From a virus (lineage: Duplodnaviria; Heunggongvirae; Uroviricota; Caudoviricetes): 64,000 bases of DNA. Both the position numbers and the translations under genes were made by a program. The DNA lies in IMG/VR virus record IMGVR_UViG_3300019935_000001, positions 36,145 through 100,144 of that record. The stretch is one strand, 5' to 3'. The notes under the pieces are model-generated. The model ran no database searches. It was not told where the DNA came from and saw nothing but the letters and a program-made list of their open reading frames with translations. Shown piece by piece: positions 16,936 through 35,837 of the stretch (positions within the stretch are counted from its first letter, which is position 1; each line of letters starts with the position of its first letter).

Positions 16936-17070
16936 CCCTTTCCTCGTCCAAGTAGATGACTTGGCTGGTACGAGACATCTGGAAACGCGCAATGTCTCAG
17001 CTGCCTGCATGGTACTGTGAGCACCCTCCGATCAACGGTTACAAAGCGACTCATCATCGTTGCCAAGGCT

Positions 17071-18372
17071 GGAGGGTGTTCACCGTTCTGTGTCACCGTT
17101 TTATTCACAGGTCGACATACTGGTCGATTCTGTCAGGGAAGTGGATGCTCAGCTGAGACAGCGTGAGGTTCCAGTTCTGCACTGGATGCGTCCACTTCTC
17201 TGAGGCCCTCAATATGCCCGCATAGAGCAGCTTCAGCAGGCTGTTTTCATTGGCGAAGCCACCCTTGGTTTTGGTCAGTTTCCGGAACTGACGGTGCACG
17301 GCCTCAACTGCATTGGTCGTGTAGATCGCACGCCTTACCTGTTCCGGGTACTTGAAGTACACCGACAGGTTCTCCCACTTGCTACGCCATGACTTGATGA
17401 CCAGCGGGTACTGTTTCCCCCACTTTGCCTCCAGCTCGTCCAGCGCCTGCTCTGCGGCGTTTCGCGTCGCCGCCTTGTAGACGCATTTCAGATCCACCAT
17501 AAATGCCTTCTGATTCTTGCTGGCGACGTACTTCATGGAGTTGCGGATCTGGTGAACAATACACAGCTGTACTTCTGTTTCCGGATAGATGCTTTCGATC
17601 GCTTCAGGAAAGCCTTTCAGACCATCCACAGAGGCAATAAGGATGTCTTTCAGACCTCGATTCTGCAGATCTGTCAGGACGCTGAGCCAGTAATGTGCAC
17701 CTTCATTTTCAGACAGATAGAGTCCCAGCAGCTCCTTCTTACCTTCGATGGTTAGCCCAAGAATGGTGTACACCGCTTTGGAGATGAAACGACCATTCTC
17801 TTTCACTTTGTAGTGAATGGCATCCAGCCAGACAAAAGGGTATACCGGCTCCAGATCACGCTCTTGCCAGGCTTTAAGCTCCGGCACCAGGCGATCAGTT
17901 ACGGCGTTAATCATGCCGTTGGAGACGCTCATACCGTACATTTCACAGATATGGTCACGGATGTTCTGGTAACTGCTGCCTAATGCAAACAGAGACAGTA
18001 TCTTGCCTTCCATTTCATCAGTCAGACGGGTCTGATATTTCCTGACAGTCTGGGGCTCAAATGAGCCATTGCGATCTCTCGGCGTCTCCAGCTCGAACTC
18101 GCCAGCAGCGGTTTTGACTGTTTTCTTTGAGGTGCCATTTTTCCGATTGGCGGCCGGATTTTCTGCAAGGTGCTCATCAATCTCTGCACCCAATGCGGCT
18201 TCAGTGATCTGTTTGATCAGTGGTGTCAGGAGGCCATCCTTGCCATTGAGGTTCTGTCCAGATTGCAGCGCTTTGGCAAACGCCTGAATATCGATTTCGT
18301 ACTTGTCAGACATGATGTGTCGCTCCCCGTTTCACTCAGTGTAGGAAACGACACAGAACTCTGAACACTACC
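17071..18372 (-). mobile_element. IS256-family insertion sequence (about 1.3 kb)
   Basis: Single Mutator-type transposase gene. Imperfect terminal inverted repeats: GGTGTTCACCGTTCTGTGTC (about 17075-17094) versus the reverse complement of GACACAGAACTCTGAACAC (18350-18368). No target-site duplication could be identified. Confidence 0.7.
17105..18313 (-). CDS. IS256-family (Mutator-type) transposase
   Basis: 402 aa. Typical family N-terminus (GKDGLLTPLIKQITEAALGAEIDEHL) and core (WLDAIHYKV, VDGLKGFPEAI, CIVHQIRNS). Confidence 0.9.
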   Translation of the reverse strand: MSDKYEIDIQAFAKALQSGQNLNGKDGLLTPLIKQITEAALGAEIDEHLAENPAANRKNGTSKKTVKTAAGEFELETPRDRNGSFEPQTVRKYQTRLTDEMEGKILSLFALGSSYQNIRDHICEMYGMSVSNGMINAVTDRLVPELKAWQERDLEPVYPFVWLDAIHYKVKENGRFISKAVYTILGLTIEGKKELLGLYLSENEGAHYWLSVLTDLQNRGLKDILIASVDGLKGFPEAIESIYPETEVQLCIVHQIRNSMKYVASKNQKAFMVDLKCVYKAATRNAAEQALDELEAKWGKQYPLVIKSWRSKWENLSVYFKYPEQVRRAIYTTNAVEAVHRQFRKLTKTKGGFANENSLLKLLYAGILRASEKWTHPVQNWNLTLSQLSIHFPDRIDQYVDL

Positions 18373-18394
18373 GCACCACTAAATTATGACCTTT

Positions 18395-18856
18395 TTATTG
18401 AGGAGAGCTGCTTGCGTCGAGCGTCTTTGTAGCGTAAGACAAAAACTTCTGCCCATTGCATTCAAAAAACACACCGTTTCCGATTGTTATTATATTAACC
18501 TTGCTGTTCCTTATTTCTGAAAACTTTGACCTTGCCTTAAATGAAAATAATCCTTGTGACTTTTTATACAATGTTGCTGCATAATGTGAAATCTCATATA
18601 TAGTTGATCTTATGCTTGCATCCATTATTTCATTATTAGATATAAGCGCATTGTTCGCCATACCTATTGTTCTTTTTTGTGATGTTTCAATAAGTATATC
18701 TAAATCAGTAGATTTGTTAGTTATTAATGATATTATCTCATGTAAGTCCAAACCTATTGAAACAGAATTTCCCTTTGTGTGTATTTTTCTTAATTCTGAA
18801 AAAAGTTCTGCAGCAGCAATAACTTTACTATCTAGCTCCATTATGGTGTAGTTCAT
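18395..18856 (-). CDS. hypothetical protein in an AT-rich segment
   Basis: 153 aa. The local sequence (about 18390-18960) is visibly much more AT-rich than the flanks. Abuts the IS. Confidence 0.5.
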   Translation of the reverse strand: MNYTIMELDSKVIAAAELFSELRKIHTKGNSVSIGLDLHEIISLITNKSTDLDILIETSQKRTIGMANNALISNNEIMDASIRSTIYEISHYAATLYKKSQGLFSFKARSKFSEIRNSKVNIITIGNGVFFECNGQKFLSYATKTLDASSSPQ

Positions 18857-19214
18857 TCATAACCCTTGTTAAATATAGTGATAATTTGCATTTGAAAGCT
18901 AAAGCTATATATTGAACGATCGATCTTGAAAATGCTAGGAAAATCTGAAATCACATAACAACTGGTACATCTGAAGTTGAGTAAAGGAGGGCCGCTGGCT
19001 GTAGGTTGATCCAGCCCACAGTCTAATTCTGTGAGAGTTCGGCTAAATTGCCTGTAGACCGTCTGACTTTGTACACTTAGCGATCTTTTGTTCTAGTTAG
19101 AACGTTCATTCGGTTGTCCTGAGCCCCTTTGTACTACCAATCTTTCTCGGGCGACTCCCCTGAAACGATCATTCACAATCTGCTTGTAAATCAATGACAG
19201 AGCAAGGATGAACA

Positions 19215-19745
19215 ATGATTGATACCAATGTCAGAGCAGTAAAGCCGAGTGAGTCCGGGTGGTCGCTATCTGTTGACCGGGATCTCTGTGGGCACTGCGG
19301 GAAACAAAGCACCTGTGAGTCACTGGGCTCCTTGAACAGCTGGCGAGAACAGCATGGGCAAACTATTCGCCTGAAAGAGTGCGGCGGGTACTCATATCCG
19401 ATTCTGTTTGTAGATCCGACAGGCACCGATGGCGAGTTCAACACGATCCGCCTGGGTGAAGCCTGGGCTGGCCGCCTGAGTCCGGGGGTAGAGGTCACGC
19501 TGATAGATAAGCCGGGTAATGTGCTGGGCACAGCGGTGGTAGAGCGGGTACATACGGGAGACAAGGAGGAGGTGATTCGAGAGCACGCCTACCAGAACCA
19601 CCTGTATGTAGAGTCAGGCATGGGGCAGGAGGAGGCCGGTGCTGACCTGCTGAGAAGACTGCCGAGCATTTATGGCAACCTGATTATGAAAAGCAACACG
19701 CGAGCCACAGTAATCTACCTCAAGAACAAGGATCTATTAAAGTAA
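19215..19745 (+). CDS. hypothetical protein
   Basis: 176-aa ORF with AAGGATGAACA upstream of the ATG. Contains CGHCG...C. Confidence 0.5.
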   Translation: MIDTNVRAVKPSESGWSLSVDRDLCGHCGKQSTCESLGSLNSWREQHGQTIRLKECGGYSYPILFVDPTGTDGEFNTIRLGEAWAGRLSPGVEVTLIDKPGNVLGTAVVERVHTGDKEEVIREHAYQNHLYVESGMGQEEAGADLLRRLPSIYGNLIMKSNTRATVIYLKNKDLLK

Positions 19746-19968: not shown

Positions 19969-21045
19969 ATGACCAAACCGTTCGGGGTTGCATCCGATGT
20001 GCATCTCCATAACTGGACCGCTTTTGCTGAGTCCACAGCAGATGGAGTTAACTCCCGTCTGCGCATCATTCTTAACGAGCTGATCCGTGCCGCCCAACAG
20101 ACTCTCAAGTCTGGCGGTAAGCGCATGGTAATCACCGGCGACCTGTTTCACGTTCGCGGCTCTATCACTCCATCCGTACTGAACCCGACACTGGACACTT
20201 TTCGTCAGATCATAGACATGGGCATCGAAGAGGTCGATGTGCTGGCCGGTAATCATGACCTGGAGTCGAAAGACAGCAACGCACTGACTAACGCCTGTGA
20301 AGCGCTGAGCCAGCTGTCGGAAGTCATGGTTGTATCAGCAACAAAGATCGTTGATCGCAATCGGGCGGTGTATGTCCCGTGGTACGACAACAGTGACGAT
20401 CTGCTGGCAGAGATTAACCGTGCAATCGGCGAGCTGCCGGAGCCTGTTGGCGAGTACGACCTGTTCATTCATGCACCGGTGGACGATGTGCTGCCGAACA
20501 TGCCGGGTCACGGGATCAACCCTGATGACCTGAAGAACCTGGGCTTCCGCTATGTTTTCTCCGGCCACTATCACAACCACAAAGAAGTGCGCGATGGCGT
20601 GTTCTCTGTCGGTGCAACAACTCACCAGACGTGGGGTGATGTCGATTCAAAGGCGGGCTTCCTGCTCGTGAATGACAGAGGCGTTAGCTACTGGCCGTCC
20701 GAAGCACCTGCATTCGTAGATCTGAGCGCTGCAACCGTAACTGATGACGTCGAAGCGTGGGATCTGTGTTCTGGCAATTATGTCCGGGTGAAGCTCGATC
20801 AGGTTACTCAGTCCGAAGTGGCCGAGATCAAGAGCTGGCTGATCGACGACATCGGGGCGAAGAACTGCATTATCCAGGCAACTCCGAAGAACAAGGTTGT
20901 CAGTCGCACCAGGTCGTCGAAAGGCGGAACGCTGCGTGAAAGCGTTGGTGACTTTGTAGGCTCGAAAAATATGACAGTTGAAAAGAAAGATGTGCTGGCA
21001 GTGTGCGAAGACATTCTGACGGCGACAGCAGGGGTGACAGTATGA
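19969..21045 (+). CDS. sbcD: SbcD/Mre11-family nuclease
   Basis: 358 aa. Metallophosphoesterase motifs GDLFH, GNHD, GHYHNH. Confidence 0.8.
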   Translation: MTKPFGVASDVHLHNWTAFAESTADGVNSRLRIILNELIRAAQQTLKSGGKRMVITGDLFHVRGSITPSVLNPTLDTFRQIIDMGIEEVDVLAGNHDLESKDSNALTNACEALSQLSEVMVVSATKIVDRNRAVYVPWYDNSDDLLAEINRAIGELPEPVGEYDLFIHAPVDDVLPNMPGHGINPDDLKNLGFRYVFSGHYHNHKEVRDGVFSVGATTHQTWGDVDSKAGFLLVNDRGVSYWPSEAPAFVDLSAATVTDDVEAWDLCSGNYVRVKLDQVTQSEVAEIKSWLIDDIGAKNCIIQATPKNKVVSRTRSSKGGTLRESVGDFVGSKNMTVEKKDVLAVCEDILTATAGVTV

Positions 21046-21368
21046 TTCAGATTAATGGCGTGACGATTAGCGGTGATGTCTCCCGGATGGACATCATAGA
21101 GGGAAAGATCATCGTTGACGGCGCTCAGGTCAACGGTATCGAACCTCCGATTCAGATTACCGGCAATGTTTCAAATCTCAGATGCGACCAGAGCGTAGAG
21201 GTTAACGGCGATGTCGGTAACGTCAGTGCGGGCGGCTCTGTACGTTGCGGGAACGTTTCAGGCAGCGCTGGTGCTGGAGGGTCTGTACGTTGCGGAAACG
21301 TTACCGGTAACGTTAATGCAGGTGGCTCTGTCCGCGTTGGCAGTATTTCCGGGGGGATGAAGCTGTGA
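21042..21368 (+). CDS. beta-helix repeat protein (bactofilin-like repeats)
   Basis: 108 aa from the ATG at 21042 (ATGA overlap with sbcD). Repeats of GNVS..GGSVRCGNV. Its stop overlaps the sbcC GTG start. Confidence 0.5.
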   Translation: MIQINGVTISGDVSRMDIIEGKIIVDGAQVNGIEPPIQITGNVSNLRCDQSVEVNGDVGNVSAGGSVRCGNVSGSAGAGGSVRCGNVTGNVNAGGSVRVGSISGGMKL

Positions 21369-23290
21369 AGTTCAAGAGCCTGAAAATCGAAAATTTTCTG
21401 ACAGTCGGGGTTATCGAAGCGGGCCTAGCCAATAAGGGGTTGGTGCTTGTACAGGGGGAGAACCGTGATGACACCAGTCAGGACAGCAATGGGTCGGGCA
21501 AGTCTTCATTCGTGGATGCACTGTGTTGGTGTCTTTATGGATCGACAGCCCGAGGTGTTTCGGGTGATGCCGTAATCAACGACACGGCGGGCAAGAACTG
21601 CCGGGTTGTGGCCTCTATCGAATTTGATGGCGAAGAGTACAAGATCTCCCGCCACCGCAAATACACCAAGATGCGCAACCGCCTGATCGTTGAAGGCCCA
21701 TCCGGCGATCTGACACTGGGCACAGATAAGCTGACGCAGGAGGTCGTGAATAAACTGGTCGGTGCCACTGCAGATGTCTTCTGTGCGTCCGTATACGCGG
21801 GCCAGGAAAACGTCCCGGATCTGCCGGGCATGACAGATGTGAACCTGAAAGCAATCGTCGAAGAAGCAGCCGGTATTAACCAGCTCGATGCCGCTCATAA
21901 GCTGGCCCGCGATAAGAAGAACGCCATTCAGCGTGATCTGGAGAACGATAATCGTGATCTCCAGTACAACGAGCAGAAGCTGCAGGATCTGAACAGCAAT
22001 CTCGCCACTACAGAAGCCCGGCTCAAGCAGTGGAAGAGCAACCACGAAGTTCGGGTTGAAGAGGCAAAGCGAAACCTTTTTTCGGTGAAAGTCGAAAAGG
22101 AAAAGCTGACGAGCGACGCGGAGACAGCCCGGACGGTTGAGGAGATCACTGCTGACCTGAATGCGTTGTCTGCACAGCTGACTGATCACGGGACTGCAAC
22201 TAAGCAGCGACAGATGCTTACTCAGGAGGCGGTTGCTGTCGAGAAGAAGGCGGCCGTTCAGGGTGCAAAAGTCGCCACAGTCACTACAGAGGTGAAGCGC
22301 CTGAAGAACAAGCTCGACGCTGTGACCGGAAAGCTCGGAGAGCCATGCTCTGAGTGTGGCCGTGATCACGACGAGTCAACCCTGGGTGTCGCTCACCAAA
22401 CTGTCAAATCTGAGCTGAAAAGCAAAGCGCTTGAAATGAAGAGCGAGAAAGCAGAGTTGGCGAGACTCACAGAAGCGTATCAGAGCGCTGTACAGCGCGT
22501 TTCAGAGTTCACCGATGCGATGACCGATGTTAGCGAGATAATCGCCGCACAGAGCGAACTGAGCGAAGAGAGAGCCGCTGCCAGCGCCCGTAACGCGAAG
22601 GTAGAGGCAGCGAGCGAAAAACTGGGCCAGTGCGCTCGCACCTACAAGGCCGTTCTGCACGAAAACAACCCTTATGCGGACTCCTATGCGGACATTGCCG
22701 AGCAAATCAGAAGTCAGTCTGCCCTGATCGATGATGCCCGGACTGCGATCAAGGCCAAGGAATACAAGCTCGAAGTCGCAGAAGAGGCTGTGCATGTGTT
22801 CGGCCCGGCGGGTGTACGTGCTCATATCCTGGACACAGTGACTCCGTTCCTGAACGACAAGACCTCTGAGTACCTGTCTGTGCTTTCCGACGGCAACATT
22901 CAGGCCGTATGGAACACGCTCGGGACAACTGCGAAGGGTGAGGTTCGGGAGAAGTTCAATATTGAAGTCACCAGCGAAACCGGTGGCGACTCCTTCAAGA
23001 AACTGTCAGGTGGTGAGAAGCGAAAAGTTCGCCTGGCAACGTCTATGGCCCTGCAAGATCTGGTAGCGAGCCGAGCAACAAAGCCTATCGACCTATTCAT
23101 TGCAGACGAGGTTGATGCAGCTATCGACGAATCCGGGTTGGAACGACTGATGACAATCCTGAAAAGCAAGGCCGAACAGGTTGGTACTGTTCTGGTGATT
23201 TCTCACTCGGACCTGAAGAGCTGGATCAGCAACAGTGTGACGGTTGTGAAAGAGAAGGGCATGGCGCGTCTGGAAGGGTATGCACTGTGA
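21365..23290 (+). CDS. sbcC: SbcC/Rad50-family ATPase
   Basis: 641 aa. Walker A NGSGKSS, long coiled coil with a CSEC zinc hook, signature LSGGEKRKV, Walker B LFIADEVD. Confidence 0.85.
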   Translation: MKFKSLKIENFLTVGVIEAGLANKGLVLVQGENRDDTSQDSNGSGKSSFVDALCWCLYGSTARGVSGDAVINDTAGKNCRVVASIEFDGEEYKISRHRKYTKMRNRLIVEGPSGDLTLGTDKLTQEVVNKLVGATADVFCASVYAGQENVPDLPGMTDVNLKAIVEEAAGINQLDAAHKLARDKKNAIQRDLENDNRDLQYNEQKLQDLNSNLATTEARLKQWKSNHEVRVEEAKRNLFSVKVEKEKLTSDAETARTVEEITADLNALSAQLTDHGTATKQRQMLTQEAVAVEKKAAVQGAKVATVTTEVKRLKNKLDAVTGKLGEPCSECGRDHDESTLGVAHQTVKSELKSKALEMKSEKAELARLTEAYQSAVQRVSEFTDAMTDVSEIIAAQSELSEERAAASARNAKVEAASEKLGQCARTYKAVLHENNPYADSYADIAEQIRSQSALIDDARTAIKAKEYKLEVAEEAVHVFGPAGVRAHILDTVTPFLNDKTSEYLSVLSDGNIQAVWNTLGTTAKGEVREKFNIEVTSETGGDSFKKLSGGEKRKVRLATSMALQDLVASRATKPIDLFIADEVDAAIDESGLERLMTILKSKAEQVGTVLVISHSDLKSWISNSVTVVKEKGMARLEGYAL

Positions 23291-23835
23291 GTGCAGATCA
23301 GATCATCAAGGGGATATTCCGGAGGCACGACATTTGCGTGTTGGGCGAGGATACCGTCGCCCAACTATGGCAGATGGTTGACGGCTTTGAGGGTGATGTG
23401 ACCGAGGAAATGGCAAAACACCTGTCTGAGGAGGTTCAGCAGGAGATAGATGATGTTCTGCAGGGGCTATCACACTGGATTGATGCACGCTTGGTAGGGC
23501 CTGACCCCGTTAGTGCTGCTATCAAAGGCTCCCGCGACAGTGTGCGGGTTCTGTCCCCGACAAAGAGAGACAGCTATCGGGTTGAAGTAGTGGACGCCAA
23601 GGATGGAGGCGCTATTGATCGGCTAACTCGCAGTACGAAGTGGTTGGCGACAAACACTGACATTTTGAATCGGATGAATCCGAAAATCAGAGGGTCACAG
23701 GCAACGGCGGTATTTGTAGATGAATTTAACGAGTGGGGAAGCGAGGATTCTGGCTGCTCTGAACAGGAGCGGCGGTCGAGTGCTCAGTCCAGAAGAGACG
23801 AACGGTACGGGGAAGCCTATGGTGCCTTCGCTTAA
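23287..23835 (+). CDS. hypothetical protein ending in ...YGAFA
   Basis: 182 aa. GTGA overlap with sbcC. Confidence 0.5.
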   Translation: MSADQIIKGIFRRHDICVLGEDTVAQLWQMVDGFEGDVTEEMAKHLSEEVQQEIDDVLQGLSHWIDARLVGPDPVSAAIKGSRDSVRVLSPTKRDSYRVEVVDAKDGGAIDRLTRSTKWLATNTDILNRMNPKIRGSQATAVFVDEFNEWGSEDSGCSEQERRSSAQSRRDERYGEAYGAFA

Positions 23836-24295
23836 AGCATACAGCCAGGAAGATCTGGCAGCGATCGCTCAGTACCTGGAAGACAACCCGAGCGAGGAGT
23901 TTGAGGTCGAACCTCCATCCAGCGGAATCTACACGGTGAAAACGGAAAACGGCCAATACAGAAGGCGCCCATTTACCAAAAGCAGCGTTGGAGGGCTTCG
24001 CTGCGTTGGCGGATACCTGGGGACGAGAGGCGACACGATCTTCCAGTTTAGGCAGGGCATGGAGCACATCCCCGTTGAAGTCCACGGCGAGCGCAGCTGG
24101 GTTATGGAGATCGGCAGCAAAGAGACTGCCCGTGAAGGGATGGGGCCCTTTATCGAAAGCATGATGGCGAAGGTGATGGAGTACAGGGCCAATCTTGCAG
24201 CTCTTGCAGCTCGGAAAGCAGAGGAAGAGAGCGGGGTCGACCACAGCATGATGTCCCGCTACTCCGACCAGGAAGATTTTGGTGCGTTCGCCTGA
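23720..24295 (+). CDS. hypothetical protein ending in ...FGAFA (alternative start at 23819)
   Basis: 191-aa ORF overlapping the previous gene by 116 nt. The overlap frame encodes a wHTH-like GEARILAALNRSGGRVLS. The ATG at 23819 would cut the overlap to 17 nt. Confidence 0.45.
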   Translation: MNLTSGEARILAALNRSGGRVLSPEETNGTGKPMVPSLKAYSQEDLAAIAQYLEDNPSEEFEVEPPSSGIYTVKTENGQYRRRPFTKSSVGGLRCVGGYLGTRGDTIFQFRQGMEHIPVEVHGERSWVMEIGSKETAREGMGPFIESMMAKVMEYRANLAALAARKAEEESGVDHSMMSRYSDQEDFGAFA

Positions 24296-24324
24296 GCGCA
24301 CCGTTGTACCAACACACATACGAG

Positions 24325-24924
24325 ATGACCATGATTATAAACGTACTGGGTTGTGACCCGGCTCTGAGTAACTTTGGCCTGGCGCAGGCACAGATCGATA
24401 CTGACACTGGCGAGATTAAGCCGCTCCGTCTGGATCTGGCGGAAACCGCCCCCTCCAAGAACAAAAAGGTTCGCAAGAACAATGACGACCTTGAGCGGTG
24501 TCGAAAACTGACCGAGGCGCTGAGAAAGAACAGTAACGGCGCTTCTGTTTGTTTTGTAGAAATGCCGGTCGGCAGTCAGTCAGCGAGAGCAATGGCCTCA
24601 TATGGTGCATGTATGGGCATTCTGTCGGGCAGTCCGCTTCCGCTGATTCAGCTGACACCAAAAGAAGTGAAAGAGGCTGCGGTCGGAAACCCGAACGCCT
24701 CAAAAGAAGAGATGATTGCCTGGGCCTATGAGAAGTACCCGGATCTGAACTGGATTAAAGGGGATAGCCGAAGCAAAAACCCTGGCAATCTCGCCAACAA
24801 GAATGAGCACCTTGCCGATGCTATCGCGACCCTGCACGCGGGCGTTAACCATGAAGACTTCCGGTCTGTTGTCTCTATCCTGCGAATGACGCAGAGCGGG
24901 GGGTTCGGTGAGTTCGCACATTAA
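24325..24924 (+). CDS. RuvC-like Holliday junction resolvase
   Basis: Start chosen at the ATG after the CAACACACATACGAG leader. Motifs VLGCDPAL (D), FVEMPV (E), NEHLADAIATLHAG (H..D), in the order of the RuvC fold. Confidence 0.6.
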   Translation: MTMIINVLGCDPALSNFGLAQAQIDTDTGEIKPLRLDLAETAPSKNKKVRKNNDDLERCRKLTEALRKNSNGASVCFVEMPVGSQSARAMASYGACMGILSGSPLPLIQLTPKEVKEAAVGNPNASKEEMIAWAYEKYPDLNWIKGDSRSKNPGNLANKNEHLADAIATLHAGVNHEDFRSVVSILRMTQSGGFGEFAH

Positions 24925-34683: not shown

Positions 34684-35288
34684 TGGGTTTAGGACTCGCA
34701 GGTACGCATCGAACCGGCAAGACGACTCTGGCAAAGGCCGTAGCTGAAAAGCTCGGCCTTCCCTTCCTGCAGTCAGAGGTCGCCGGTGTACTGGATGACA
34801 TGGGTATTAGTGCAGACCAGCAGATGGACTTCAGAACACGAATGAAGGCCCAGTTTGCGATTCTGGAGCATCACTCAAAGCTATGGCGTGAAAGCCCCAC
34901 CTTCGTGGCGGACAGAACACCTCTGTGCTTCATGATGTACACGCTTTCAGACATTCAGCCGCAGGGTTGGGATCAGAGCGTTCTGGAGGATTATGTAGAG
35001 TCGTGCTTTCAGGTTGCCAACCGTCACTTCTCTACCATCGTCCTGCTGCAACCCGGCATCCCGGTTGTTAAAGCGAGCAAGAACACCGGGCGTCTCAGTG
35101 AGGCTCTGATGTTCAAACAGAACTATTTGGCCAAGGGACTCCTGTCAGACGAGCGCCTGTTGGCCAAAGCCAGTTTCATTCGGGAGAGCCTGATCGACCT
35201 GGAGAGCCGGGTCGATGCAGTCAGCGCCATGTACGCTGAGGACAGGAAGTTGGCCGCGATTTTCAGTACCCAACAAATTCTTCATTGA
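34683..35288 (+). CDS. P-loop NTPase, possible nucleotide kinase
   Basis: 201 aa. N-terminal Walker A GTHRTGKTT. Confidence 0.45.
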   Translation: MGLGLAGTHRTGKTTLAKAVAEKLGLPFLQSEVAGVLDDMGISADQQMDFRTRMKAQFAILEHHSKLWRESPTFVADRTPLCFMMYTLSDIQPQGWDQSVLEDYVESCFQVANRHFSTIVLLQPGIPVVKASKNTGRLSEALMFKQNYLAKGLLSDERLLAKASFIRESLIDLESRVDAVSAMYAEDRKLAAIFSTQQILH

Positions 35289-35341
35289 CATCCATAGCTT
35301 ACTTATTGAGACACCAGTATCTGATCTTTAGAATGCTTTAT

Positions 35342-35361
35342 ATAAGTAAGCTATTACTTAC
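35342..35361. promoter_or_regulatory. dispersed palindrome (ATAAGT-N8-ACTTAC)
   Basis: ATAAGTAAGCTATTACTTAC, 27 nt upstream of the next ATG. Confidence 0.45.
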
Positions 35362-35387
35362 CAATACACGCATAGCAGAGATAAATC

Positions 35388-35837
35388 ATGACCGCACAAG
35401 CTATATGGGATGTACCGGATGTCGGCGAGGAGCTGAATAGGAAGGTGCTGGAGACGCTCGACTATCTGGAAAAGAAGAAGAGCAGCGGGGAAATACTGGA
35501 GCGGGACTTCTGTGTTGCCCTGCTAACGCTCAATCAAGTCGCTCTGGGCCTGTACGACCGGGATCTTGCGGAGTGGGTTAGCACGTACCTTTCTGAGAAT
35601 GGGCGTGTACTGAAGCCGATCACCGCCCGCCGTGTATTCGCAGCACCGGCTGCCACCTTTGTCGTTGAATACGAAACAGGCTCTGCTGAGCTGAGAATCT
35701 TCCGGGTTCAGGATGGCGCAGTGAAGCTGCTGAAGCACCTGGATTCATCTGACCAGATAGACGGCATCCGCATCGCCCATAGCAAGTACGTTCGCACAGT
35801 GCGGGAACTTTCAGACAAATATACGGAGGTTCGATAA
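35388..35837 (+). CDS. hypothetical protein
   Basis: 149-aa ORF preceded by the palindrome and a leader-like ACACGCATAGCAGAGA. Confidence 0.5.
   Translation: MTAQAIWDVPDVGEELNRKVLETLDYLEKKKSSGEILERDFCVALLTLNQVALGLYDRDLAEWVSTYLSENGRVLKPITARRVFAAPAATFVVEYETGSAELRIFRVQDGAVKLLKHLDSSDQIDGIRIAHSKYVRTVRELSDKYTEVR

What the first reader, a model, noticed from the sequence alone, without database searches (positions are those of the whole stretch)
19969..23290. A beta-helix repeat protein translationally coupled between SbcD and SbcC
The 108-aa ORF at 21042-21368 overlaps the sbcD stop (ATGA) and the sbcC start (GTGA). It consists of repeats such as GNVS..GGSVRCGNV, typical of bactofilin-like beta-helices. 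I do not know of a third subunit in characterised SbcCD, gp46/47 or Mre11-Rad50 operons. The tight coupling suggests a stoichiometric partner or regulator.
Basis: partly seen in the sequence, partly recalled or inferred. Interest (0 to 1): 0.5.

Follow-up and report, generated by a model that had tools for sequence, protein, structure and literature searches.

The report
Accessory beta-helix gene inside phage sbcCD operon
A real 108-residue bactofilin-like beta-helix gene sits between the two nuclease genes sbcD and sbcC of a marine phage, but it is a wandering accessory phage gene that landed in a habitually variable slot, not a conserved third subunit of the nuclease.

Summary
ORF X (21042-21368, +, 108 aa) overlaps the sbcD stop (ATGA) and the sbcC start (GTGA). 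It has three 15-residue GGSVR repeats and is modelled confidently as a right-handed beta-helix closest to bactofilin, MinC-C and an antifreeze beta-helix.

- Five of the nearest relatives (SbcD 50-60% identical) and phage nickie have sbcD abutting sbcC with nothing between.
- Other relatives carry unrelated small ORFs in that slot. These include T4 (46.2 and 46.1, also with 4-nt overlaps) and an SPO1-like phage.
- X belongs to phrog_3163, an uncharacterised family with about 3,000 clusters at 50% identity. Members occur in KVP40-like, Bastille-like and jumbo phages and in some long, chromosome-sized contigs.
- In 44 further loci carrying a family member, none had sbcC or sbcD nearby, and no partner gene was conserved.
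- Four-base overlaps occur at 14 of 60 same-strand gene junctions in the window, so the coupling is not distinctive.

Best reading: X is an accessory early gene encoding a self-associating, bactofilin-like beta-helix. Its target is unknown. This is an ordinary, low-interest case.

The parts
19215..19745 (+). Conserved 176-aa ORF upstream of sbcD (phrog_2105, function unknown). Listed as context: this is the small neighbour that really is conserved with sbcCD in this lineage.
   Evidence: phrog_2105 E 2.2e-22. It is 35-52% identical to the ORF at the same position in L013, L014, L016, L017, L019, L021 and phage nickie.
19969..21045 (+). sbcD / Mre11-like nuclease subunit (358 aa)
   Evidence: Pfam Metallophos E 8.4e-6; phrog_100 E 1.2e-58. 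There are 915 homologues at E<=1e-20, and an identical protein lies on a 102,745-bp metagenome contig.
21042..21368 (+). ORF X: a 108-aa bactofilin-like right-handed beta-helix protein, member of phrog_3163. It overlaps sbcD (ATGA) and sbcC (GTGA) by 4 nt each.
21215..21331 (+). 45-nt (15-aa) tandem repeat inside X. It encodes the three xGNVxAGGSVRCGNV windings of the beta-helix.
   Evidence: Tandem Repeats Finder: period 45, 2.6 copies, 72% matches, score 136. GGSVR occurs at residues 64, 79 and 94. The strand pattern of the model repeats every 15 residues.
21365..23290 (+). sbcC / Rad50-like ATPase subunit (641 aa), GTG start
   Evidence: Pfam AAA_23 and SMC_N; phrog_77 E 1.3e-124. It is about 40% identical to SbcC of phages nickie, SSU5 and RHEph10.
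23287..23835 (+). 182-aa ORF that overlaps the sbcC stop by 4 nt and is not conserved in relatives. It shows that 4-nt coupling does not imply partnership.
   Evidence: coordinates. blastp against the downstream ORFs of 11 relatives gives nothing better than E 0.026.

Best explanation
X is a genuine protein-coding accessory gene. It belongs to a large, uncharacterised family of small proteins (phrog_3163) found in phages and in some long, chromosome-sized contigs. In this one phage lineage it occupies the sbcD-sbcC junction, a slot that is empty in many relatives and filled with unrelated small ORFs in others.

Shown: X is co-transcribed with sbcD and sbcC, since no promoter- or terminator-like site lies on the + strand inside the block. 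Its start and stop overlap the neighbouring genes by 4 nt, as at many other junctions of this genome. It is predicted to fold into a compact right-handed beta-helix with 15-residue windings and no flanking tails, closest to the bactofilin core and the MinC C-terminal domain.

Inferred: like those folds, it probably works by self-association through the open ends or faces of the helix. It would act as a small scaffold or target-binding module early in infection, independently of the SbcCD nuclease. The cellular target is unknown.

The window itself is the replication and recombination module of a roughly 103-kb marine phage or phage-plasmid of the SSU5/nickie type.
For: Position is not conserved.
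- sbcD directly abuts sbcC in L013, L014/L015, L017/L018 and L019 (SbcD 50-60% identical) and in phage nickie.
- Unrelated ORFs fill the slot in L016 (183 aa, helical), L020 (111 aa), L021 (106 + 114 aa), L022 (103 + 107 aa), SSU5 (63 aa), RHEph10 (116 + 101 + 77 aa), the SPO1-like phage Goe10 (four ORFs) and T4 (46.2 and 46.1).
- The X-family HMM finds nothing in any of those loci.

The family is found elsewhere.
- A profile search gives 3,089 cluster representatives at E<=1e-3.
- tblastn finds it in 89 phage records, which are KVP40-like, Bastille-like, jumbo or other large phages and none SSU5-like.
- In Sundance, BCSR5, BCP78, 6E35.1a, Xoo-sp15, KVP40, Arash and four metagenome contigs it sits among small early or DNA-metabolism genes, never next to sbcCD.
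- 0 of 35 IMG/VR loci with a family member have an SbcC or SbcD homologue in the stretch held.
- The only recurrent neighbours come from about ten loci that share the same gene order.

Fold and self-association.
- AlphaFold2 pLDDT 86.7.
- Sub-threshold to threshold Pfam Bactofilin hits in homologues.
- BFVD neighbours include a protein annotated 'Bactofilin'.
- Fusions of the repeat to XRE-type HTH domains would fit an oligomerisation module.

Coupling is not special.
- 14 of 60 same-strand junctions in the window can overlap by 4 nt.
- No + strand promoter- or terminator-like site lies within 19969-23290.
Against: No experiment or interaction prediction was possible, so a lineage-specific interaction with SbcCD is not excluded.

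The gene is inserted with both overlaps intact, and its GC content equals that of its neighbours (0.538 against 0.542 and 0.544). It is therefore not an obviously recent, unadapted insert.

Self-association is inferred only from fold resemblance. X itself has no Pfam Bactofilin hit even at E<=10. Foldseek found no significant PDB match.

The junction survey covers about 15 genomes, not the whole clade. The IMG/VR loci held uneven flanks of 2-14 kb, and SbcC/SbcD were sought there only with single-sequence phmmer.
Confidence: 0.62

Rival explanations
1. One reading: X is a lineage-specific stoichiometric partner or regulator of the phage SbcCD (Mre11-Rad50-like) nuclease. Translational coupling would deliver it in matched amounts.
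For: X lies exactly between the two subunit genes with 4-nt overlaps on both sides, and no internal + strand promoter- or terminator-like site was found. Its GC content matches its neighbours. Phage proteins that modulate MR-type nucleases do exist, for example TelN of N15 (abstract of PMC12624138, listed).
Against: X is absent from the junction in every relative examined. The family occurs in 44 other loci without sbcCD nearby. The slot hosts at least six unrelated ORF families. Four-base overlaps are common in the window, and sbcC shares one with the unconserved downstream ORF. The abstract of PMC12343972 states that Mre11 and Rad50 are the conserved core and that Nbs1/Xrs2 is present only in eukaryotes.
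Confidence: 0.08
2. X is a host-takeover or anti-defence effector that binds a host protein through its beta-helix surface. One version is a MinC-C-like inhibitor of cell division (FtsZ/MinD). Another is a mildly acidic DNA-mimicking rod.
Confidence: 0.2
3. X is a minor virion structural or decoration protein, as many phage beta-helices are.
For: One homologue, in Bacillus phage vB_BanH_Emiliahah, is annotated 'structural protein'. Beta-helices are common in phage fibres, and tail-fibre and baseplate entries appear among the weak fold hits.
Against: In every context examined the gene lies in replication, nucleotide-metabolism or early-gene blocks, not in morphogenesis modules. It is only 108 aa, with no attachment domain. 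All other annotated homologues are 'hypothetical protein'.
Confidence: 0.05

Closest known systems
Bactofilin (Pfam PF04519; e.g. Thermus thermophilus bactofilin 6ria, Caulobacter BacA 2n3d)
   Different: X has no PF04519 hit even at E<=10. Its windings are 15 residues long. It has no disordered N- or C-terminal tails. It is phage-encoded in a recombination operon. Polymerisation is untested.
T4 genes 46.2 and 46.1 (between gene 47, sbcD-like, and gene 46, sbcC-like)
   Same: Small ORFs sandwiched between the two nuclease subunit genes, with 4-nt overlaps at both outer junctions. No function is annotated for them in the T4 record.
   Different: No homology to X: the X-family HMM finds nothing in the T4 locus. 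There are two ORFs of 68 and 87 aa rather than one beta-helix protein.
phrog_3163 (e.g. KVP40.0139, BCP78_0070, Sundance gp116)
   Same: Direct sequence family of X. The PHROG hit is E 2.7e-15, and HMM hits to these phage genes range from E 4e-35 to 9e-20. They share the N-terminal MxxIxINGxTY...DG segment followed by AGGSVxC windings.
   Different: Those members lie in early or hypothetical gene clusters, not in sbcCD operons. They are 35-50% identical to X or to the family member used as query.
MinC C-terminal domain
   Different: There is no sequence-family match, and no N-terminal FtsZ-inhibiting domain. A partner such as MinD is neither known nor encoded nearby.

Membership tests
phrog_3163 (uncharacterised phage protein family) | Significant full-length match to the family HMM | tested here: met
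   E 2.7e-15, 57.4 bits, residues 2-98 of X against profile positions 16-118 of 121. Reciprocal profile searches recover phage members.
Bactofilin (PF04519) | Sequence match to PF04519 at or above the gathering score of 27.9 bits | tested here: not met
   X has no hit at E<=10. Homologues score from about 12 to 28.4 bits, and only P0085 exceeds the cut-off.
Bactofilin (PF04519) | Right-handed beta-helical core | tested here: met
Bactofilin (PF04519) | Nucleotide-independent polymerisation into filaments | not testable with these tools
   Needs purified protein examined by EM, or in-vivo imaging.
Bactofilin (PF04519) | Unstructured terminal tails flanking the core, with an N-terminal membrane-targeting peptide in many members (from general knowledge of bactofilins) | tested here: not met
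   The model has strands from residue 2 to residue 102 of 108, with no low-confidence tail. Some homologues (P0002, P0003, P0006) do carry an N-terminal extension of about 25 aa, MF(D/S)W(F/L)KN....
Third subunit or obligate partner of SbcCD / Mre11-Rad50 | Conserved co-occurrence and adjacency with sbcC/sbcD across related genomes | tested here: not met
   X is absent from the junction in all relatives surveyed. 0 of 35 further X-family loci have sbcC or sbcD in the stretch held.
Third subunit or obligate partner of SbcCD / Mre11-Rad50 | Physical interaction with SbcC or SbcD | not testable with these tools
   No multimer prediction or biochemistry was available.
MinC C-terminal domain | Sequence-family match to MinC_C, together with a MinD or FtsZ context | tested here: not met
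   No Pfam or NCBIfam MinC hit for X or for 46 homologues. There is fold similarity only.
Known anti-phage defence proteins (PADLOC) | HMM match | tested here: not met
   No hit for X at E<=0.01. SbcC gives only generic SMC/ABC-ATPase hits such as LmuB and PbeC.

The most novel reading that the evidence does not exclude
The sbcD-sbcC junction of phage Mre11-Rad50 operons would be a dedicated docking slot for interchangeable small modulators of the nuclease. These would include X here, 46.2 and 46.1 in T4, the two Vibrio-clade families and SSU5_074. X would be a beta-helical cap or tether that tunes this phage's SbcCD activity or localisation.
Probability: 0.07. Interest if true: 0.6.

Novelty: new member of a known kind. 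Interest (0 to 1): 0.2.

Why it matters
As a claim about SbcCD it matters little. The evidence indicates that the nuclease remains a two-subunit enzyme and that X is a passenger.

Two modest points remain useful.

First, phrog_3163 is a very widespread bactofilin-like mini beta-helix family: about 3,000 clusters at 50% identity, including members in KVP40-like and Bastille-like phages. I found no solved relative by sequence search of the PDB and no paper describing it in two full-text searches. A function for one member would annotate thousands of phage genes.

Second, the junction between the two nuclease genes is a recurrent insertion slot across distant phage lineages (T4, SPO1-like, SSU5/nickie-like). 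That is a caution for annotation: 4-nt overlaps and operon position are weak evidence of partnership in phages.

Tried and rejected
- megablast of the 3.3-kb block against phages, plasmids and E. coli genomes found no match.
- The search for related loci with X or SbcC as single proteins confirmed nothing in viral or genome contigs.
It was replaced by a degenerate DNA pattern for AGGSVxCxxVxGxVxAGGSV, which gave 35 IMG/VR loci.
- The afdb50 library was unavailable.
- Profile searches of PDB sequences with A1 and A2 found no significant relative.
- Pfam, NCBIfam and PADLOC gave no family for X.
- Literature searches for phage bactofilin-like or 'polymer-forming cytoskeletal' proteins returned nothing relevant.
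- A conserved partner gene next to X-family members was considered. It was rejected because recurrent neighbours came only from about ten loci that share the same gene order.
- The strongly acidic DNA-mimic idea was considered and given low weight, because X has a net charge of -1.
- The upstream GTG at 21003 was considered as the start of X. It was rejected because homologues begin at the position of the ATG at 21042.
Full report
1. What is there

On the + strand the window carries sbcD (19969-21045, 358 aa), a 108-aa ORF referred to here as X (21042-21368), and sbcC (21365-23290, 641 aa). The X start ATG shares ATGA with the sbcD stop. The X stop shares GTGA with the sbcC GTG start.

sbcD matches Pfam Metallophos and phrog_100 (E 1.2e-58). 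sbcC matches AAA_23/SMC_N and phrog_77 (E 1.3e-124). The same three genes with the same overlaps were called independently on a 102,745-bp ENA metagenome contig that carries an identical SbcD. No promoter-like or terminator-like site lies on the + strand inside the block, so the three genes are co-transcribed.

X contains GGSVR at residues 64, 79 and 94. This corresponds to a 45-nt tandem repeat of 2.6 copies at 21215-21331.

2. X is a real gene with a beta-helix fold

X hits phrog_3163 (function unknown) at E 2.7e-15. It has nine word-indexed homologues of 40-51% identity. A profile of these found 3,089 cluster representatives at E<=1e-3 and 1,508 at E<=1e-10 among 1.84 billion representatives. 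Most are stand-alone proteins of 104-125 aa.

The family shares an N-terminal MxxIxINGxTYxG...DG segment followed by AGGSVxC..V.G.V windings. This also fixes the start of X at the ATG at 21042.

AlphaFold2 with the ten-sequence alignment gives an all-beta model: mean pLDDT 86.7, pTM 0.74, and 14 short strands with a 15-residue period in the C-terminal half.

Left-handed LbH proteins align only at rmsd 8-10 A. Foldseek against the PDB gave nothing significant. Against BFVD it recovered homologous viral proteins, one of them named 'Bactofilin'.

At sequence level X has no Pfam family even at E<=10. Among homologues, Bactofilin and FapA appear only weakly. A few members reach 23.6-28.4 bits against a cut-off of 27.9. 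There is no solved relative by sequence. 'Bactofilin-like beta-helix' is therefore right as a fold statement. Membership of PF04519 is not met for X itself.

3. Genomic setting

The window is a replication and recombination module. It encodes CobT-like and porphyrin-related proteins, a DNA polymerase III alpha-type polymerase, an SSB, a 5'-3' exonuclease, a RecA/UvsX-like recombinase, sbcD-X-sbcC, a RuvC-like resolvase and NrdA.

SbcC is about 40% identical to that of Pseudomonas phage nickie, Rhizobium phage RHEph10 and the SSU5-type phage-plasmids. Closer SbcD relatives (46-60% identical) come from marine metagenomes, including a TARA assembly (L014), and from Vibrio contigs of 110-119 kb. 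An IS256-family element upstream is 81% identical to one on a Photobacterium plasmid. The source is most likely a marine gammaproteobacterial phage or phage-plasmid of about 103 kb.

It is not. The content of the junction in each relative is as follows.

| Genome or locus | SbcD identity | Between sbcD and sbcC |
|---|---|---|
| L013 | 60% | nothing (gap of 1-3 nt) |
| L014/L015 | 60% | nothing (gap of 1-3 nt) |
| L017/L018 | 57% | nothing (gap of 1-3 nt) |
| L019 | 50% | nothing (4-nt overlap) |
| Phage nickie | n/a | nothing (4-nt overlap) |
| L016 | 59% | 183-aa helical ORF |
| L020 (Vibrio splendidus MAG) | 50% | 111-aa ORF |
| L021 (V. owensii) | 48% | 106 + 114 aa |
| L022 | 46% | 103 + 107 aa |
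| SSU5 | n/a | 63 aa |
| RHEph10 | n/a | 116 + 101 + 77 aa |
| SPO1-like phage Goe10 | n/a | four small ORFs |
| T4 | n/a | 46.2 and 46.1 between genes 47 and 46, with 4-nt overlaps at both outer junctions |

All-against-all blastp shows that the Vibrio-clade inserts form two families, in swapped order between L021 and L022. Everything else, including X, is unrelated. An HMM of the X family finds no member anywhere in these loci.

The junction is therefore a recurrently variable slot. X occupies it only in the genome of the window.

5. Where else is the X family?

tblastn with a family member finds 89 phage records: 45 Vibrio (KVP40-like and other large phages), 39 Bacillus (Bastille-like and others), plus Brevibacillus Sundance, Xanthomonas Xoo-sp15, Sinorhizobium jumbo phage Phosso and Salmonella phage Arash. 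None is SSU5-like. X itself also hits Burkholderia phage BCSR5.

In all annotated contexts the gene sits among small hypothetical early genes or nucleotide-metabolism genes, never by sbcCD. In KVP40 and 6E35.1a, for example, it lies downstream of a methyltransferase and upstream of rIIA/rIIB. The same holds for four metagenome contigs.

A degenerate DNA pattern for the repeat recovered 35 IMG/VR loci. All 35 encode a family member, and none has an SbcC or SbcD homologue in the stretch held. Clustering of the ORFs within 3 kb of X across 44 loci found recurrent neighbours only within about ten loci that share the same gene order. Some members lie on long contigs of up to 6.4 Mb, including a Polaromonas record. 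Longer proteins fuse the repeats to XRE-type HTH domains.

6. Is the coupling informative?

A crude gene set for the window has 60 same-strand neighbour pairs. Fourteen can overlap by 4 nt, one by 1 nt, and nine lie within 20 nt. sbcC overlaps the next ORF (23287-23835) in the same way, and that ORF is not conserved in relatives. The overlaps therefore reflect compact phage gene packing.

By contrast, the 176-aa ORF upstream of sbcD (19215-19745, phrog_2105) is conserved at that position in all relatives tested, at 35-52% identity.

7. Most likely mechanism

Shown:
- X is a real member of a widespread phage family.
- It is co-transcribed with sbcCD.
- It is predicted to form a right-handed beta-helix.
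- Its position is not conserved.

Inferred:
- X acts independently of SbcCD as a small self-associating or target-binding beta-helix expressed with early and replication genes.
- Self-association is suggested only by resemblance to bactofilin and MinC-C, and by fusion of the repeat to HTH repressor-type domains, where an oligomerisation module would be expected.

The family is mildly acidic (median pI 4.8), but X itself has a net charge of -1. A strongly acidic DNA-mimic role is therefore not favoured. No defence-system family matches X.

8. Comparison with what is known

According to the abstract of PMC12343972, Mre11 and Rad50 are the conserved core and Nbs1/Xrs2 is present only in eukaryotes. 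T4 gp46/gp47 is described as a complex of those two proteins (PMC3016280).

X is best filed as a new member of phrog_3163, a bactofilin-like but not Pfam-bactofilin family of unknown function.

9. Verdict

Interest is low (0.2). The residual novel reading, that junction ORFs are interchangeable modulators of phage MR nucleases, has a probability of about 0.07.

Noticed in passing
window 19215-19745 (+): A 176-aa ORF (phrog_2105, unknown function, with a CGHCG...C motif) lies directly upstream of sbcD. It is conserved at that position in all relatives checked (35-52% identity, from nickie to L014). It is a better candidate than X for a lineage-conserved small protein associated with SbcCD.
   Followed up: partly
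window 17105-18313 (-), flanks about 17000-18950: An IS256-family (Transposase_mut) element is inserted between the recA-like gene and the conserved ORF upstream of sbcD. It is 81% identical at nucleotide level to an IS256 on a Photobacterium sp. TY1-4 plasmid. Relatives lack it, and the public contig of the same genome ends beside it.
   Followed up: partly
L020 5092-5427; L021 5100-5757; L022 5092-5723: In the Vibrio-associated clade the sbcD-sbcC slot holds two conserved small-ORF families: L020_111 ~ L021_114 ~ L022_103, and L021_106 ~ L022_107. Their order is swapped between L021 and L022.
   Followed up: partly
L029 2982-3432 (T4 record 34981-35431): T4 genes 46.1 (DUF5487) and 46.2 lie between gene 47 (sbcD-like) and gene 46 (sbcC-like), with 4-nt overlaps at both outer junctions. 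This is a textbook precedent for small ORFs in this slot.
   Followed up: yes
L017 867-3182: The RecA homologue of one relative is 771 aa and carries an intein with a LAGLIDADG homing endonuclease domain.
   Followed up: no
window 23287-23835 (+) and 23720-24295 (+): The 182-aa ORF that overlaps the sbcC stop by 4 nt has no family and no conserved counterpart in relatives. It also overlaps a 191-aa ORF in another frame, so the gene model between sbcC and the RuvC-like gene (24304-24924) is uncertain.
   Followed up: partly
P0010, P0011, P0012, P0018, P0028, P0060, P0367, P0368: Proteins of 196-621 aa fuse an N-terminal XRE-type HTH domain to several copies of the same AGGSVxC beta-helix repeat. 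This fusion is not annotated as a family.
   Followed up: no
P0002, P0003, P0006 (L003 6001-6399): Some X-family members carry an N-terminal extension of about 25 aa beginning MF(D/S)W(F/L)KN. From memory, it resembles the short membrane-targeting peptides of bactofilins.
   Followed up: no
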